DNA of 44,555 bases from Deltaproteobacteria bacterium (lineage in GTDB: Bacteria > Calditrichota > Calditrichia > RBG-13-44-9 > J075). The DNA lies in NCBI GenBank assembly GCA_011526015.1, contig WYBG01000315.1:1-44555 (forward strand). Reading direction: 5' to 3'. Shown here piece after piece: positions 18,281 through 18,801 of the stretch. A program made the position numbers and the translations under genes. A model generated the notes under the pieces. The model did not search any database. It was not told the DNA's origin and saw only the letters and a program-made list of their open reading frames with translations. Each line of letters starts with the position of its first letter. Position 1 is the stretch's first letter.

Positions 18281-18451
18281 TTAAACCCGTTCGTTGTACT
18301 TTGAATTAATTTTGGCAATCTCTTCCACCCACTTTCGCCGCTCCCGGTGCTCCAGGCCAAAAATCTGCTCCAGCCCCCAGTGGAAATGATACGCGATATA
18401 GGCTACCTCCTCATAGAGCGCTTTGGAGGGGTAGCCTACGATTCCCCCGGG
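18281..18451 (-). CDS. Start-less -1-frame ORF, predicted frameshift extension of the upstream chaperone-like gene (small conserved eCIS protein, AYHFHW motif)
   Basis: The frame is open from 18466 to the TAA at 18283-18281. It encodes GGIVGYPSKALYEEVAYIAYHFHWGLEQIFGLEHRERRKWVEEIAKINSKYNERV. No ATG, GTG or TTG lies upstream of the conserved-looking core. It overlaps the end of the upstream ORF at the slippery-type sequence C CCG GGG. Confidence 0.45.
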   Translation of the reverse strand, partial: PGGIVGYPSKALYEEVAYIAYHFHWGLEQIFGLEHRERRKWVEEIAKINSKYNERV

Positions 18452-18801
18452 GAGCTGAACTCCACCTCAAAGCTGTGCTGGCACTTGGGACATACCACCG
18501 CTTTCGTCGCTGCACCTTTAAAATTGATAGCGTTGTAAAATTCCTGCAAATAGGCCAGGTCTGCAGAGTAAAAACCCTCGATCACTTTAGGATTTATCTG
18601 CGGCAATGATCCCAGGCGGGTAATCACCCGCGCCAACAGGATGATGATCAGGTACGCCTGGTTCGCCTGCACCCGGGGGTCCTTCAGCGGCAATATTTCA
18701 TCGGCGGCGGTGGAGAGGCGCATCACCCCCTCCCGATGGAGGTTTCCCTCGCCGTCCACATATCCCCTCGGCAGGGTAAATTCGAATTCCGTTTGCAGCA
18801 T
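18436..18801 (-). CDS. Conserved post-tube eCIS protein, putative tail assembly chaperone (P2 gpE / lambda gpG position)
   Basis: The track ORF extends to 18954 but overlaps the tube gene. The ATG at 18801 has GGAG 5 nt upstream and lies 22 nt after the tube stop. The call is positional (sheath, tube, this gene). Confidence 0.6.
   Translation of the reverse strand: MLQTEFEFTLPRGYVDGEGNLHREGVMRLSTAADEILPLKDPRVQANQAYLIIILLARVITRLGSLPQINPKVIEGFYSADLAYLQEFYNAINFKGAATKAVVCPKCQHSFEVEFSSPGES

What the first reader, a model, noticed from the sequence alone, without database searches (positions are those of the whole stretch)
18281..18801. Start-less -1-frame ORF joined to the post-tube gene by a C_CCG_GGG heptamer: a P2 E/E+E' (lambda G/GT)-style chaperone frameshift inside an eCIS
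On the minus strand the 121-codon ORF (ATG at 18801, GGAG 5 nt upstream) ends ...AGC TCC CCG GGG GAA TCG TAG. A second frame, shifted -1, stays open from 18466 to the TAA at 18283-18281. It encodes a well-formed peptide (…YEEVAYIAYHFHWGLEQIFGLEHRERRKWVEEIAKIN…). It has no ATG, GTG or TTG before that core; the only in-frame GTG is 15 codons from the end. The zero-frame sequence C CCG GGG fits the canonical X_XXY_YYZ slippery pattern, and slippage there would give a ~173-aa fusion. The gene order (sheath, tube, this pair, next gene, LysM hub, gpD/V) mirrors P2 FI-FII-E/E+E'-T-U-D, where E+E' is made by -1 frameshifting. I am not aware of this being described for eCIS.
Basis: partly seen in the sequence, partly recalled or inferred. 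Interest (0 to 1): 0.7.

Follow-up and report, generated by a model that had tools for sequence, protein, structure and literature searches.

The report
Frameshifted tail-assembly chaperone in eCIS
The two overlapping small genes after the tube gene of this phage-tail-like injection system are very probably read as one protein by a programmed -1 ribosomal frameshift, as in phage P2 E/E+E', and the same slippery G-run plus RNA hairpin is kept in about 80 related loci from bacteria and archaea, where databases annotate two separate genes.

Summary
ORF1 runs on the minus strand from ATG 18801 to TAG 18436 (121 aa). A -1 frame is open from 18466 to TAA 18281 and has no ATG, GTG or TTG before codon 46.

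- **Frame relationship.** In 79 of 80 related loci from many bacterial and archaeal phyla, the second ORF (Pfam DUF6760) follows ORF1 in the -1 frame.
- **Start codons.** 61 of 81 loci have no start codon nearby. The only two loci without a slippery run have an ATG in an ATGA overlap.
- **Hairpin.** A conserved hairpin lies 5-8 nt downstream (window 18439-18398, -22 kcal/mol). It shows synonymous-site conservation (GTA 64/65) and compensatory changes.
- **Homology.** ORF1 matches phage tail assembly chaperones (phrog_508, E 4.7e-7). DUF6760 is a remote homologue of the P2 E' extension (hhalign 93%, E 3.5e-7).

I found no paper describing this. RefSeq annotates two separate CDS. I file it as a new member of a known kind. 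No experiment has shown the fusion protein.

The parts
18436..18801 (-). ORF1: tail assembly chaperone (gpE/gpG-like), 121 aa, with a C-terminal CPxC zinc-ribbon-like motif. This is the zero-frame product, ending ...SSPGES*.
   Evidence: Translation. phrog_508 'tail assembly chaperone' E 4.7e-7. Pfam Phage_TAC_7 hit by 18 of 62 family members (best E 0.0036) and Gp41_Mu by 10 of 62. At least 8000 homologous protein clusters, mostly 120-125 aa.
18444..18451 (-).
   Evidence: Sequence. A G-run of at least 5 lies at the same alignment columns in 76/81 loci. Run lengths of 5, 6, 7 and 8 all keep the -1 relationship, so they differ by substitution and not by indel. Exceptions carry other heptamers (G GGA AAT, A AAT TTT TTG) or an ATG start.
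18398..18439 (-). Downstream stimulatory hairpin. The 5' arm is 18439-18426 (core GGCUACC 18436-18430) and the 3' arm is 18412-18398 (core GGUAGCC 18407-18401). It begins 5-8 nt 3' of the shift site.
   Evidence: MFE -22.1 kcal/mol, z -3.9. Across the family, 90.9% of cells are paired against 31-62% for slid controls, with 28 double-sided changes that 0/500 shuffles reached. The helix is in the MFE fold of 73/80 loci, with median z -3.76. Synonymous-site conservation: GGC 51/53, TAC 68/76, CCC 64/71, GAG 75/76, GTA 64/65.
18281..18448 (-). ORF2: the -1-frame extension (DUF6760, P2 E'-like), 54 residues added after Gly119. No start codon of its own.
   Evidence: Pfam DUF6760 E 6.6e-15. No ATG/GTG/TTG before codon 46. 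hhalign against the P2-like E' extension gives probability 93%, E 3.5e-7. 38 of 79 family members hit PF06528 Phage_P2_GpE, best E 5.8e-6. AF2 models three helices with pLDDT above 90.
18460..18468 (-). GAGGTGGAG, a Shine-Dalgarno-like stretch 8-11 nt 5' of the shift site. It is a possible dnaX-type upstream stimulator, but it also encodes the conserved E-V-E.
   Evidence: 65/81 loci have GGAG or GAGG 5-22 nt upstream of the run. GAG and GTG are enriched in the motif relative to background (79% vs 60%, 70% vs 45%). Suggestive only.
18824..19261 (-). Tube protein (T4 gp19-like), immediately upstream.
   Evidence: PF06841 E 1.2e-48.
19329..20498 (-). Sheath protein.
   Evidence: PF04984 and PF17482.
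17289..18260 (-). 323-aa protein with an eCIS_core (DUF4157) domain, in the position of the tape measure gene (P2 T, lambda H). The tape measure role is inferred from position only.
   Evidence: PF13699 E 1.1e-13. No NCBIfam CIS tape-measure hit.
16656..17288 (-). CIS_tube + LysM tube initiator (Afp7/gpU-like).
   Evidence: PF19266 E 2.6e-33 and LysM.
15073..16644 (-). VgrG-like spike (gpD/gpV-like).
   Evidence: PF04717 and NF033848.

Best explanation
ORF1 and ORF2 form one recoded gene for the tail assembly chaperone of this extracellular contractile injection system.

Most ribosomes translate ORF1 and stop at TAG 18438-18436, giving a 121-aa chaperone. A minority slip back one nucleotide on the G-run (C CCG GGG G, 18451-18444). 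In that slip, tRNA-Gly re-pairs from GGG to G GG. The ribosome is paused there by the 14-bp hairpin that starts 5-8 nt downstream, possibly helped by the SD-like GAGGTGGAG upstream.

These ribosomes continue in the -1 frame and make a 173-aa fusion (...SSPG-GIVGYP...) that carries the E'-like DUF6760 domain.

By analogy with lambda G/GT and P2 E/E+E', the abundant short form would coat the tape-measure-like protein encoded just downstream. The rare long form would use its extra domain to recruit tube subunits or the hub, so that the frameshift fixes the ratio of the two products.

Shown here: the anatomy, its conservation, the RNA structure and the homologies. Inferred: that the shift is ribosomal, its efficiency, and the chaperone mechanism.
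For: 1. **Frame.** The -1 frame relationship holds in 79/80 loci spanning Acidobacteriota, Chloroflexota, Cyanobacteria, Actinomycetota, Bacillota, Myxococcota, Pseudomonadota, Methanosarcinales, Methanothrix, ANME-2 and Halobacteria. These include complete isolate genomes and replicons.
2. **Slippery run.** A G-run of at least 5 sits at a fixed position in 76/81 loci. Its middle G is free in the ORF2 frame and is constrained only by the dispensable ORF1 tail.
3. **Starts versus slip sites.** The 2x2 pattern is: slippery and no start 61, slippery and start 18, not slippery and ATG start 2, neither 0.
4. **Variable stop, fixed run.** The zero-frame stop moves (positions -3, -2, +2, +9 codons relative to the conserved Tyr) while the run stays fixed.
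5. **Hairpin.** It sits at the classical spacing with covariation. For example, GGCUAUC/GAUAGCC occurs in L026, L042, L059 and L073, where TAC>TAT is matched by a Val>Ile change. CGC../..GCG, AGC../..GCU and UGC../..GCA also occur. Val is GTA in 64/65 sequences there, against about 10% GTA elsewhere.
6. **Co-loss.** Loci without the hairpin are the ones that use another solution.
7. **ORF1 homology.** ORF1 is a tail assembly chaperone relative.
8. **ORF2 homology.** DUF6760 is homologous to the P2 E' extension. All five best tblastn matches in 50,697 phage records, though individually non-significant, fall on the E'/GpE ORF just upstream of the tape measure gene of P2-like phages. E' is in the same -1 frame there, behind T TTT TTG.
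9. **Gene calling.** Gene callers find at least 8000 ORF1 clusters but only 90 ORF2 clusters, which start at assorted fortuitous codons.
10. **Variant architecture.** The cassette is intact in a variant with a tandem-duplicated chaperone.
Against: - No protein, ribosome-profiling or reporter data exist here, so the fusion has not been observed.
- In 43 of 81 loci, including many archaeal ones, the run is only G5 followed by AA (xxG GGG GAA). That is not a canonical X XXY YYZ heptamer unless the preceding codon happens to be CCG. G-rich shift sites are not among the classically efficient ones.
- 18 loci have an ATG or GTG at residue +2/+3, often in an ATGA/GTGA overlap. Two loci (L044, L045) have only that. 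ORF2 can therefore apparently function, or at least be made, as a separate peptide in some lineages.
- RNAalifold on its own recovers only 6 of the 11 pairs, with a weak consensus energy.
- The hairpin lies in strongly conserved coding sequence, so part of its conservation reflects the protein.
- ORF1 shows no detectable similarity to two P2-like gpE sequences by hhalign. Its tail-assembly-chaperone assignment rests on PHROG and weak Pfam hits.
- Foldseek found no significant structural neighbour.
Confidence: 0.85

Rival explanations
1. ORF2 is a separate small gene. It is translated on its own by termination-reinitiation or by initiation at a non-canonical codon (ATC/ATA/GTN at residue +2) next to the ORF1 stop. 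This is how RefSeq annotates it ('DUF6760 family protein').
For: PGAP annotates two CDS, for example an ATA start in the ATAG overlap in Nostoc pn3 and GTG in a GTGA overlap in Streptomyces. 18/81 loci have ATG or GTG at +2/+3. L044 and L045 have an ATGA overlap and no slippery run. The -1 relationship is also what a 4-nt stop/start overlap gives. The Afp6-type plug at the same gene position is a free-standing 55-aa protein.
Against: - 61/81 loci have no ATG/GTG/TTG within 8 codons. The +2 codon is mostly ATA/ATC/ATT or GTA/GTC.
- The ORF1 stop is not at a fixed distance from that codon.
- The two Gly codons upstream of any such start are conserved in the ORF2 frame.
- The G-run lies 2 nt from the putative start, too close to act as an SD.
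- The hairpin would bury the region just downstream of the start.
- The homologous P2 E' ORF is likewise annotated separately although it sits behind the T TTT TTG slip site.
Confidence: 0.07
2. The frame change is made on the mRNA, not on the ribosome. RNA polymerase stutters on the G-run and adds one G, which puts ORF2 in frame in a fraction of transcripts.
For: The conserved element is a homopolymer and not a strict heptamer. Adding one G does produce the in-frame fusion, as in L081/L082, which have 8 G where relatives have 7. The protein product would be nearly identical.
Against: From general knowledge, transcriptional slippage in bacteria needs long A or T runs of about 8-9 or more. Here 43/81 loci have only 5 G. 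A hairpin 5-8 nt downstream of the site is the signature of ribosomal -1 shifting. Loci without a G-run use classical ribosomal heptamers, G GGA AAT and A AAT TTT TTG.
Confidence: 0.05
3. The two ORFs in this window are one in-frame gene broken by a 1-nt sequencing or assembly error, or by a recent mutation, in CCCCGGGGG.
For: Homopolymers are error-prone. Rare in-frame versions of 174-177 aa exist in databases.
Against: 79/80 independent loci, including Illumina assemblies and finished genomes, have the same split. An independent 97%-identical ORF1 ends at the same stop (P0004). The in-frame versions themselves look derived: 8 G instead of 7 in L081/L082, and further indels in L084. Only about 6 of the best 150 representatives span the junction.
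Confidence: 0.02

Closest known systems
Phage P2 E / E+E' tail assembly chaperone (-1 frameshift in the FI-FII-E-T-U-D operon; Peduoviridae)
   Same: - Gene order is sheath, tube, chaperone pair, then the tape-measure-position gene, a gpU-like tube initiator and a gpD/V-like spike.
- The second ORF is in the -1 frame, has no start of its own and overlaps the 3' end of the first.
- The extension domains are homologous: they share an IA.I..FHWP...L..L..E...W.E motif, hhalign gives 93% with E 3.5e-7, and family members hit PF06528.
- ORF1 hits the Pfam family that holds P2 E and Mu gp41, but weakly.
   Different: - The slip site is a G-run (G GGG G/A), not T TTT TTG.
- A strong conserved downstream hairpin is present.
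- ORF1 carries an extra C-terminal CPxC zinc-ribbon-like element and shows no direct similarity to gpE.
- The system is not a phage. It has an AAA+ ATPase and a Pvc16 cap, and there is no match in 50,697 phage records at E<=0.01.
- The window's own ORF2 scores below Pfam's PF06528 threshold (12 vs 23 bits).
Phage lambda G / GT (conserved tail assembly chaperone frameshift of long-tailed phages, Xu, Hendrix and Duda 2004; reviewed in PMC5009743)
   Same: Two products from one start through a low-level -1 shift near the end of the first ORF, positioned between the tube gene and the tape measure gene. The presumed purpose is a fixed ratio of the two products.
   Different: No detectable sequence relationship to G or T. 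Lambda uses G GGA AAG. Lambda has a non-contractile tail.
E. coli dnaX gamma/tau -1 frameshift cassette
   Same: A three-part layout: a slippery run, a downstream stem-loop at 5-8 nt, and an SD-like stretch about 10 nt upstream.
   Different: Here the shift extends the protein instead of truncating it. The upstream SD role is only suggested. The proteins are unrelated.
Cis6 / Afp6 / Pvc6 / Alg6 spike plug (Pfam DUF5908) of Afp/PVC-type eCIS
   Same: Same gene position (after the tube gene, before the LysM tube initiator), same size (about 55 aa), helical, and a short shared HRE..(R/K)WVExI motif. The plug is essential for particle assembly (PMC12546770, PMC8894136).
   Different: It has its own ATG and is a different Pfam family. 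hhalign probability is only 8%, and no PDB chain matches DUF6760. Afp/PVC loci have no ORF1-type chaperone there.

Membership tests
Frameshifted tail assembly chaperone pair (lambda G/GT, P2 E/E+E' type) | The pair lies between the tube gene and the tape measure (or equivalent) gene of a long tail module. | tested here: met
   Tube gene at 18824-19261 upstream. The 323-aa gene and then the LysM tube initiator lie downstream. The downstream gene is identified as a tape measure by position only.
Frameshifted tail assembly chaperone pair (lambda G/GT, P2 E/E+E' type) | The second ORF overlaps the 3' end of the first in the -1 frame and has no initiation signal of its own, and this is conserved among relatives. 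| tested here: met
   Window. Family: 79/80 loci in the -1 frame. 61/81 have no start within 8 codons.
Frameshifted tail assembly chaperone pair (lambda G/GT, P2 E/E+E' type) | A slippery sequence lies in the overlap, phased to the zero frame, and is conserved. | tested here: met
   C CCG GGG in the window. A G-run of at least 5 in 76/81 loci, and other heptamers in L074 and L079. In 43 loci the site is G GGG GAA, which is not a strict X XXY YYZ.
Frameshifted tail assembly chaperone pair (lambda G/GT, P2 E/E+E' type) | The first ORF is homologous to known tail assembly chaperones. | tested here: met
   phrog_508 E 4.7e-7. Phage_TAC_7 hit by 18/62 members, best E 0.0036, and Gp41_Mu by 10/62. 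No similarity to two P2-like gpE sequences by hhalign.
Frameshifted tail assembly chaperone pair (lambda G/GT, P2 E/E+E' type) | The fusion protein is actually made, at a low ratio to the short form, and is required for assembly. | not testable with these tools
   Needs proteomics, a western blot, a reporter assay and genetics.
Pfam PF06528 Phage_P2_GpE (the E' extension) | Score at or above the Pfam gathering threshold (23 bits). | tested here: not met
   The window's ORF2 scores 12 bits, E 0.16. Remote homology is nevertheless supported: 38/79 members hit the family (best E 5.8e-6), and hhalign gives 93%, E 3.5e-7.
Pfam PF20546 DUF6760 | Score at or above the gathering threshold (27 bits). 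| tested here: met
   55.4 bits, E 6.6e-15. All 79 family members hit it.
Cis6/Afp6 spike plug (Pfam PF19265 DUF5908) | Sequence membership in DUF5908, or similarity to solved plug chains. | tested here: not met
   No DUF5908 hit even at E<=10. hhalign against Afp6 gives 8%. No PDB chain matched.
Extracellular contractile injection system (Afp/PVC-like, PLTS) | Sheath, tube, LysM tube initiator, VgrG-like spike, PAAR, gp25, gpJ/gpI baseplate, AAA+ ATPase with an N-terminal WHD, and a Pvc16/DUF4255 cap; no capsid genes. | tested here: met
   No head genes were seen among ORFs of at least 150 aa.
dnaX-type -1 PRF cassette | A downstream stem-loop 5-9 nt from the shift site. | tested here: met
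dnaX-type -1 PRF cassette | An upstream SD-like stimulator about 10 nt 5' of the shift site. | tested here: inconclusive
   GAGGTGGAG at 18468-18460. There is modest synonymous enrichment, but it is confounded by the conserved E-V-E.

The most novel reading that the evidence does not exclude
The frameshift-encoded E'-like domain (DUF6760) may be the evolutionary counterpart of the Cis6/Afp6/Pvc6 'spike plug'. On this reading, in most eCIS lineages the plug enters the particle as the C-terminal extension of the chaperone, or is released from it. The Afp/PVC lineage would have lost the chaperone and kept only a free-standing plug gene. That would link the 'T/E' domain' of phage tail chaperones to a structural component of the injection machine.

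A second novel aspect is that the same -1 frameshift cassette, G-run plus hairpin, is shared by chromosomal loci of Bacteria and Archaea. This gives one of the broadest cellular (non-viral, non-IS) frameshift families.
Probability: 0.15. Interest if true: 0.75.

Novelty: new member of a known kind. Interest (0 to 1): 0.6.

Why it matters
- **Annotation.** Thousands of eCIS loci appear to carry this gene pair: at least 8000 protein clusters at 90% identity, and 1557 representative clusters at 50% identity. They are annotated as 'phage tail assembly protein' plus an orphan 'DUF6760 family protein' with improbable starts, or with the second ORF missed. Recognising a recoded gene corrects that annotation and gives DUF6760 a role as the E'-like chaperone extension.
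- **eCIS biology.** It shows that most eCIS lineages keep the phage-type chaperone and frameshift logic for tube and tape-measure assembly. The two best-studied systems, Afp and PVC, lack it. This matters for heterologous expression and engineering of non-PVC eCIS, because cloning the two ORFs separately, or 'repairing' the frameshift, would change the ratio of the two products.
- **Recoding.** It adds a large, cross-domain set of -1 frameshift sites with a G-rich shift site and a simple hairpin. This includes methanogens and haloarchaea, where few frameshift cases are known.

Tried and rejected
- **Natural in-frame fusions as a control.** I hoped they would show whether the Gly-Gly codons need to be a G-run. 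This failed. The fusions keep the run and look like homopolymer-length variants or errors: L081/L082 have 8 G and L084 has further indels.
- **DUF6760 = Cis6 spike plug.** Not supported by sequence. PDB phmmer and hmmsearch found only chance carbonic anhydrase matches through 'FHW'. Afp6 belongs to DUF5908, with hhalign probability 8%.
- **Structure route.** The AF2 model of the fusion had pLDDT 72.5. Foldseek against PDB and BFVD gave no hit with E<0.01. Weak 'baseplate hub assembly' hits were not pursued.
- **ORF1 against P2-like gpE by hhalign.** No similarity.
- **Rfam.** No known RNA family in 18250-18600.
- **RNAalifold.** Run without a given structure, it recovers only part of the helix.
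- **Literature.** Nine full-text searches found no description of a frameshift in eCIS. The terms included DUF6760, Afp6/Pvc6/Cis6 with frameshift, and contractile injection with frameshift, slippery or tail assembly chaperone. I also read the relevant passages of seven of the papers cited below (all but PMC10885494). The library lacks most subscription-journal papers.
- **DNA for P0010.** It could not be fetched. P0002 served instead.
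Full report
**1. Observation**

On the minus strand, ORF1 starts at ATG 18801, with GGAG 5 nt upstream. It runs 121 codons to TAG 18438-18436 and ends ...AGC TCC CCG GGG GAA TCG TAG.

The -1 frame is open from 18466 to TAA 18283-18281, which is 61 codons. It encodes GGVQLPGGIVGYPSKALYEEVAYIAYHFHWGLEQIFGLEHRERRKWVEEIAKINSKYNERV. 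The only ATG/GTG/TTG in that frame is GTG 18328, at codon 46.

The zero-frame heptamer C CCG GGG is at 18451-18445. A -1 slip there gives a 173-aa product.

The ORF list also shows a longer version of ORF1 from ATG 18954. That version overlaps the tube gene, and homologues start at MLQTE/MFQTE.

**2. Context**

The window carries a complete extracellular contractile injection system on the minus strand:

| Coordinates | Gene |
|---|---|
| 22286-24517 | AAA+ ATPase with WHD |
| 21477-22271 | GH108/PG-binding protein |
| 20540-21421 | Pvc16-type cap |
| 19329-20498 | sheath |
| 18824-19261 | gp19-like tube |
| 18281-18801 | ORF1/ORF2 |
| 17289-18260 | 323-aa eCIS_core (DUF4157) protein |
| 16656-17288 | CIS_tube+LysM |
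| 15073-16644 | VgrG-like spike |
| 14235-15062 | DUF2169 |
| 13840-14238 | PAAR-like |
| 13417-13809 | gp25 |
| 11360-13420 | gpJ |
| 10770-11363 | gpI |
| 8550-10748 | Peptidase_G2 fibre-like protein |

The flanks are chromosomal: a sensor kinase on one side, and Ig-repeat surface protein and polysaccharide genes on the other.

**3. Is it an error or an accident?**

It is neither. A search with the predicted fusion found at least 8000 protein clusters for ORF1. Almost all are 120-125 aa, and many end ...SPGES. One is a 97% identical ORF1 from an independent assembly with the same end (P0004).

I fetched 80 related loci from one-genome-per-species contigs. They come from Acidobacteriota, Chloroflexota, Cyanobacteria, Actinomycetota, Bacillota, Myxococcota, Nitrospirota, Pseudomonadota, Methanosarcinales, Methanothrix, ANME-2, Methanoperedens and Halobacteria.

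I scanned the three forward frames of each locus with HMMs for ORF1 and ORF2. In 79 of 80 loci the ORF2 region follows directly in the -1 frame.

The one exception, L072, is in the +1 frame. It has 6 G where its close relatives L076 and L077 have 7, and it comes from a long-read MAG. It is most simply a 1-nt homopolymer error.

**4. The shift site**

Aligned on the ORF2 frame, 76 of 81 loci have a run of at least 5 G at the same columns: 43 with 5 G, 10 with 6, 20 with 7 and 3 with 8. In the zero frame this reads xxG GGG GAA, xxG GGG GGA or xxG GGG GGG.

The longer runs arise by substitution of the following A's, so the frame relationship is unchanged.

The constant element is therefore G GGG, on which tRNA-Gly can re-pair perfectly after moving back one base.

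The middle G of the run is a third codon position in the ORF2 frame. In the zero frame it only specifies a residue of the 2-4-residue ORF1 tail. Even so, it is G in 70 of 75 Gly codons there, which points to selection on the nucleotide run itself.

The five loci without a G-run are informative:
- L074 (Halobium) has G GGA AAT.
- L079 (Desulfocucumis) has A AAT TTT TTG GGA.
- L067 has a C5 run.
- L044 and L045 have no slippery run at all, but do have an ATG in an ATGA overlap with the ORF1 stop.

The overall classification is: slippery and no start codon within 8 codons, 61; slippery and start, 18; not slippery and start, 2; neither, 0.

The recurring NTG triplets 12 and 15 codons upstream are by-products of the two invariant Cys codons of ORF1.

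The zero-frame stop sits at several different distances from the conserved Tyr, while the run does not move.

**5. A downstream hairpin**

Codon-by-codon analysis of ORF2 shows a patch of extreme synonymous conservation just after the shift site:

| Codon | Count in the patch |
|---|---|
| GGC | 51/53 |
| TAC | 68/76 |
| CCC | 64/71 |
| GAG | 57/63 |
| GAG | 75/76 |
| GTA | 64/65 |
| GCC | 52/76 |

By contrast, later Tyr, Glu and Val codons are used almost evenly. GTA is only about 10% of Val codons in ORF1.

GGCTACC is the reverse complement of GGTAGCC. In the window the segment 18444-18390 folds into a 14-bp stem with one bulge, spanning 18439-18398. Its energy is -22.1 kcal/mol with z = -3.9. 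The stem starts 5-8 nt after the shift site, which is the classical spacing for a -1 frameshift stimulator.

On the 80-sequence alignment A2, the 11-pair core is paired in 90.9% of cells, against 31-62% when the partner is slid by 1-3 columns. There are 28 cells with changes on both sides, a value reached by 0 of 500 shuffles.

Examples of compensatory change:
- GGCUAUC/GAUAGCC in L026, L042, L059 and L073. Here the Tyr TAC>TAT change is matched by a change that even alters Val to Ile.
- CGC.../...GCG.
- AGC.../...GCU.
- UGC.../...GCA.
- GGUUAUC/GAUGGCC.

Folded one by one, 73 of 80 loci have this helix in their minimum-energy structure. The median energy is -20.2 kcal/mol and the median z is -3.76.

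The loci that lack the helix are L039, L041, L044, L074 and L079. These are the ones with another heptamer, with their own ATG, or with a G7 run plus a GTGA overlap.

Two caveats apply. RNAalifold, run without a given structure, recovers only 6 of the 11 pairs, with a weak consensus energy. The arms also encode conserved residues (G-Y-P and E-E-V-A). No Rfam family matches.

An SD-like GAGGTGGAG lies 8-11 nt upstream (18468-18460). Its codons are somewhat more GAG/GTG-rich than background. A dnaX-like upstream stimulator is possible but not shown.

**6. What the two ORFs are**

ORF1 matches PHROG 508, 'tail assembly chaperone', with E 4.7e-7. Across 62 family members:
- 18 hit Pfam Phage_TAC_7 ('E, or 41 or 14'), best E 0.0036.
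- 10 hit Mu Gp41.
- The C-terminal CPxC region hits zinc-ribbon models.

A direct hhalign against two P2-like gpE sequences shows nothing.

ORF2 is Pfam DUF6760. Its only other Pfam hit is Phage_P2_GpE, at E 0.16.

A tblastn of ORF2 against 50,697 phage records gave five matches. None is significant alone (E 5-7). All five fall on the small ORF annotated 'GpE family' or 'P2 GpE family protein' between the chaperone gene and the tape measure gene of P2-like phages.

In those phages this ORF is in the -1 frame, behind GGT TTT TTG. It reads ...DDLMADIAVIFHWPLSDLYSLSLTELITWREKA..., which lines up with ...YEEVAYIAYHFHWPxxxILxLEHxERRRWVEEIA....

Profile-profile comparison of 79 eCIS ORF2 sequences with two P2-like E' sequences gives probability 93% and E 3.5e-7. 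38 of the 79 hit PF06528 individually, best E 5.8e-6.

The extension is therefore homologous to the extension that P2 makes by frameshifting, not merely analogous to it. The window's own sequence is below Pfam's threshold for PF06528, so I call it a remote homologue and not a member.

No phage record contains a closer relative of the pair. The family belongs to eCIS.

**7. How databases treat it**

The predicted fusion matches 46 plasmid or chromid records, and 24 of the 25 records listed show the match in two pieces, i.e. in two frames (H15 is the one exception). These include Streptomyces, Nostoc, Ralstonia, Rhodococcus, Halogeometricum and Haloferax.

RefSeq annotates 'phage tail assembly protein' (or 'zinc-ribbon domain-containing protein') plus 'DUF6760 family protein'. 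In Nostoc pn3 the second CDS is started at ATA inside the ATAG overlap. In Streptomyces it starts at the GTG of a GTGA overlap.

Gene callers report only 90 ORF2 clusters, against at least 8000 for ORF1. The called ORF2 proteins have heterogeneous fortuitous N-termini.

In-frame fusions are rare: about 6 of the best 150 of 1557 representative clusters span the junction. The ones I could inspect look derived or erroneous.

A variant with a tandem-duplicated chaperone domain keeps the identical cassette.

**8. Mechanism and rivals**

The best explanation is a programmed -1 ribosomal frameshift on the G-run, stimulated by the hairpin. It would produce a minor ORF1-ORF2 fusion alongside the major ORF1 product.

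The function is inferred from lambda G/GT and P2 E/E+E' (PMC5009743). The short form would coat the tape-measure-like protein encoded next. The long form would bridge to the tube or hub through the E'-like domain.

The rivals are:
- **Independent initiation or reinitiation of ORF2.** This is the annotation pipelines' solution. It is plausible in the two loci that have only an ATG, and it could coexist with frameshifting in 18 others. It does not explain the 61 start-less loci, the conserved run or the hairpin.
- **Transcriptional slippage.** This would give the same product, but 5 G is short for it, and the hairpin spacing and the alternative heptamers point to the ribosome.
- **Sequencing error.** Excluded by the comparative data.

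**9. Comparison with what is known, and novelty**

Frameshifted tail assembly chaperones are a textbook feature of long-tailed phages.

In the accessible full-text library I found no description of one in eCIS/PLTS/Afp/PVC-type systems. DUF6760 does not occur in any paper in the library. Papers I read in part: PMC8894136, PMC12546770, PMC12210884, PMC4122934, PMC12180501, PMC5009743, PMC10885494.

The best-studied eCIS, Afp and PVC, do not have this pair. At the same position they have the free-standing Afp6/Pvc6 'spike plug' (DUF5908, PMC12546770, PMC8894136).

I could not show that DUF6760 and DUF5908 are related. hhalign gives 8%, with only a short shared HRE..RWVExI motif. That link remains the most novel reading the evidence does not exclude.

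I rate the finding as a new member of a known kind. The mechanism and its logic are known. The family, its breadth across both prokaryotic domains, the G-run/hairpin cassette and the DUF6760 = E' assignment appear to be new.

**10. Verdict**

- Observation: confirmed.
- Interpretation: supported, with the shift-site correction.
- Confidence in the frameshift explanation: 0.85.
- Interest: 0.6.

Noticed in passing
L091:1501-2417 (also P0001, P0002, P0006, P0010): A variant in which the chaperone domain is duplicated in tandem (about 250 aa, both copies ORF1-like). It still ends ...SPGES* and is followed by the same G-run, hairpin and -1-frame DUF6760. Gene order there also differs: cap, chaperone, then sheath.
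   Followed up: partly
L081/L082:4340-4370; L084:4001-4528; L072:3341-3409: The rare in-frame fusions and the single +1-frame locus all differ from their relatives by homopolymer length. L081/L082 have 8 G instead of 7. L072 has 6 G instead of 7. L084 has further frame breaks inside ORF2. They may be assembly errors, but genuine length variation of the run, which would switch the product ratio, is not excluded.
   Followed up: partly
L085:6363-6533 (Nostoc sp. UHCC 0926 plasmid pn3): RefSeq starts the 'DUF6760 family protein' CDS at an ATA codon inside the ATAG overlap with the chaperone stop. This is an annotation work-around for a start-less ORF.
   Followed up: yes
L044:3345-3413 and L045:3342-3410: Two loci (a Nitrospiraceae MAG and a Holophagales MAG) have lost the slippery run. 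They have instead an ATG in an ATGA stop/start overlap. In some lineages the extension domain may therefore be made as a separate peptide.
   Followed up: partly
window 18460-18468 (-): GAGGTGGAG, complementary to the anti-Shine-Dalgarno sequence, lies 8-11 nt 5' of the shift site. Its Glu and Val codons are more GAG/GTG-rich than elsewhere in ORF1 across the family (79% vs 60%, 70% vs 45%).
   Followed up: partly
L088:17542-17709 (pADAP afp6) vs window 18281-18448: Afp6 (DUF5908, the spike plug) and DUF6760 share gene position, size and a short motif HRE..(R/K)WVExI in the last helix. Profile comparison is not significant (8%).
   Followed up: partly
window 1-8000 vs 9000-24000: G+C is 33-42% at the left end, which holds a CHAT response regulator and a 1317-aa Reg_prop/GAF histidine kinase. 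It is 50-55% across the eCIS. This compositional boundary suggests that one of the two regions was acquired horizontally.
   Followed up: no
window 21477-22271 (-): A GH108 lysozyme-like protein with a PG_binding_3 domain is encoded inside the eCIS operon, between the AAA+ ATPase gene and the cap gene. It may serve release or cell-wall penetration.
   Followed up: no
window 13840-15062 (-): A DUF2169 protein and a Tox-PAAR-like protein sit between the VgrG-like spike gene and the gp25 gene. This pairing is better known from T6SS spike and effector loading.
   Followed up: no
window 17289-18260 (-): The gene in the tape measure position is only 323 aa. It carries the eCIS_core (DUF4157) domain, which the literature mostly discusses as a toxin-associated domain. 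No CIS tape measure model matches it.
   Followed up: no
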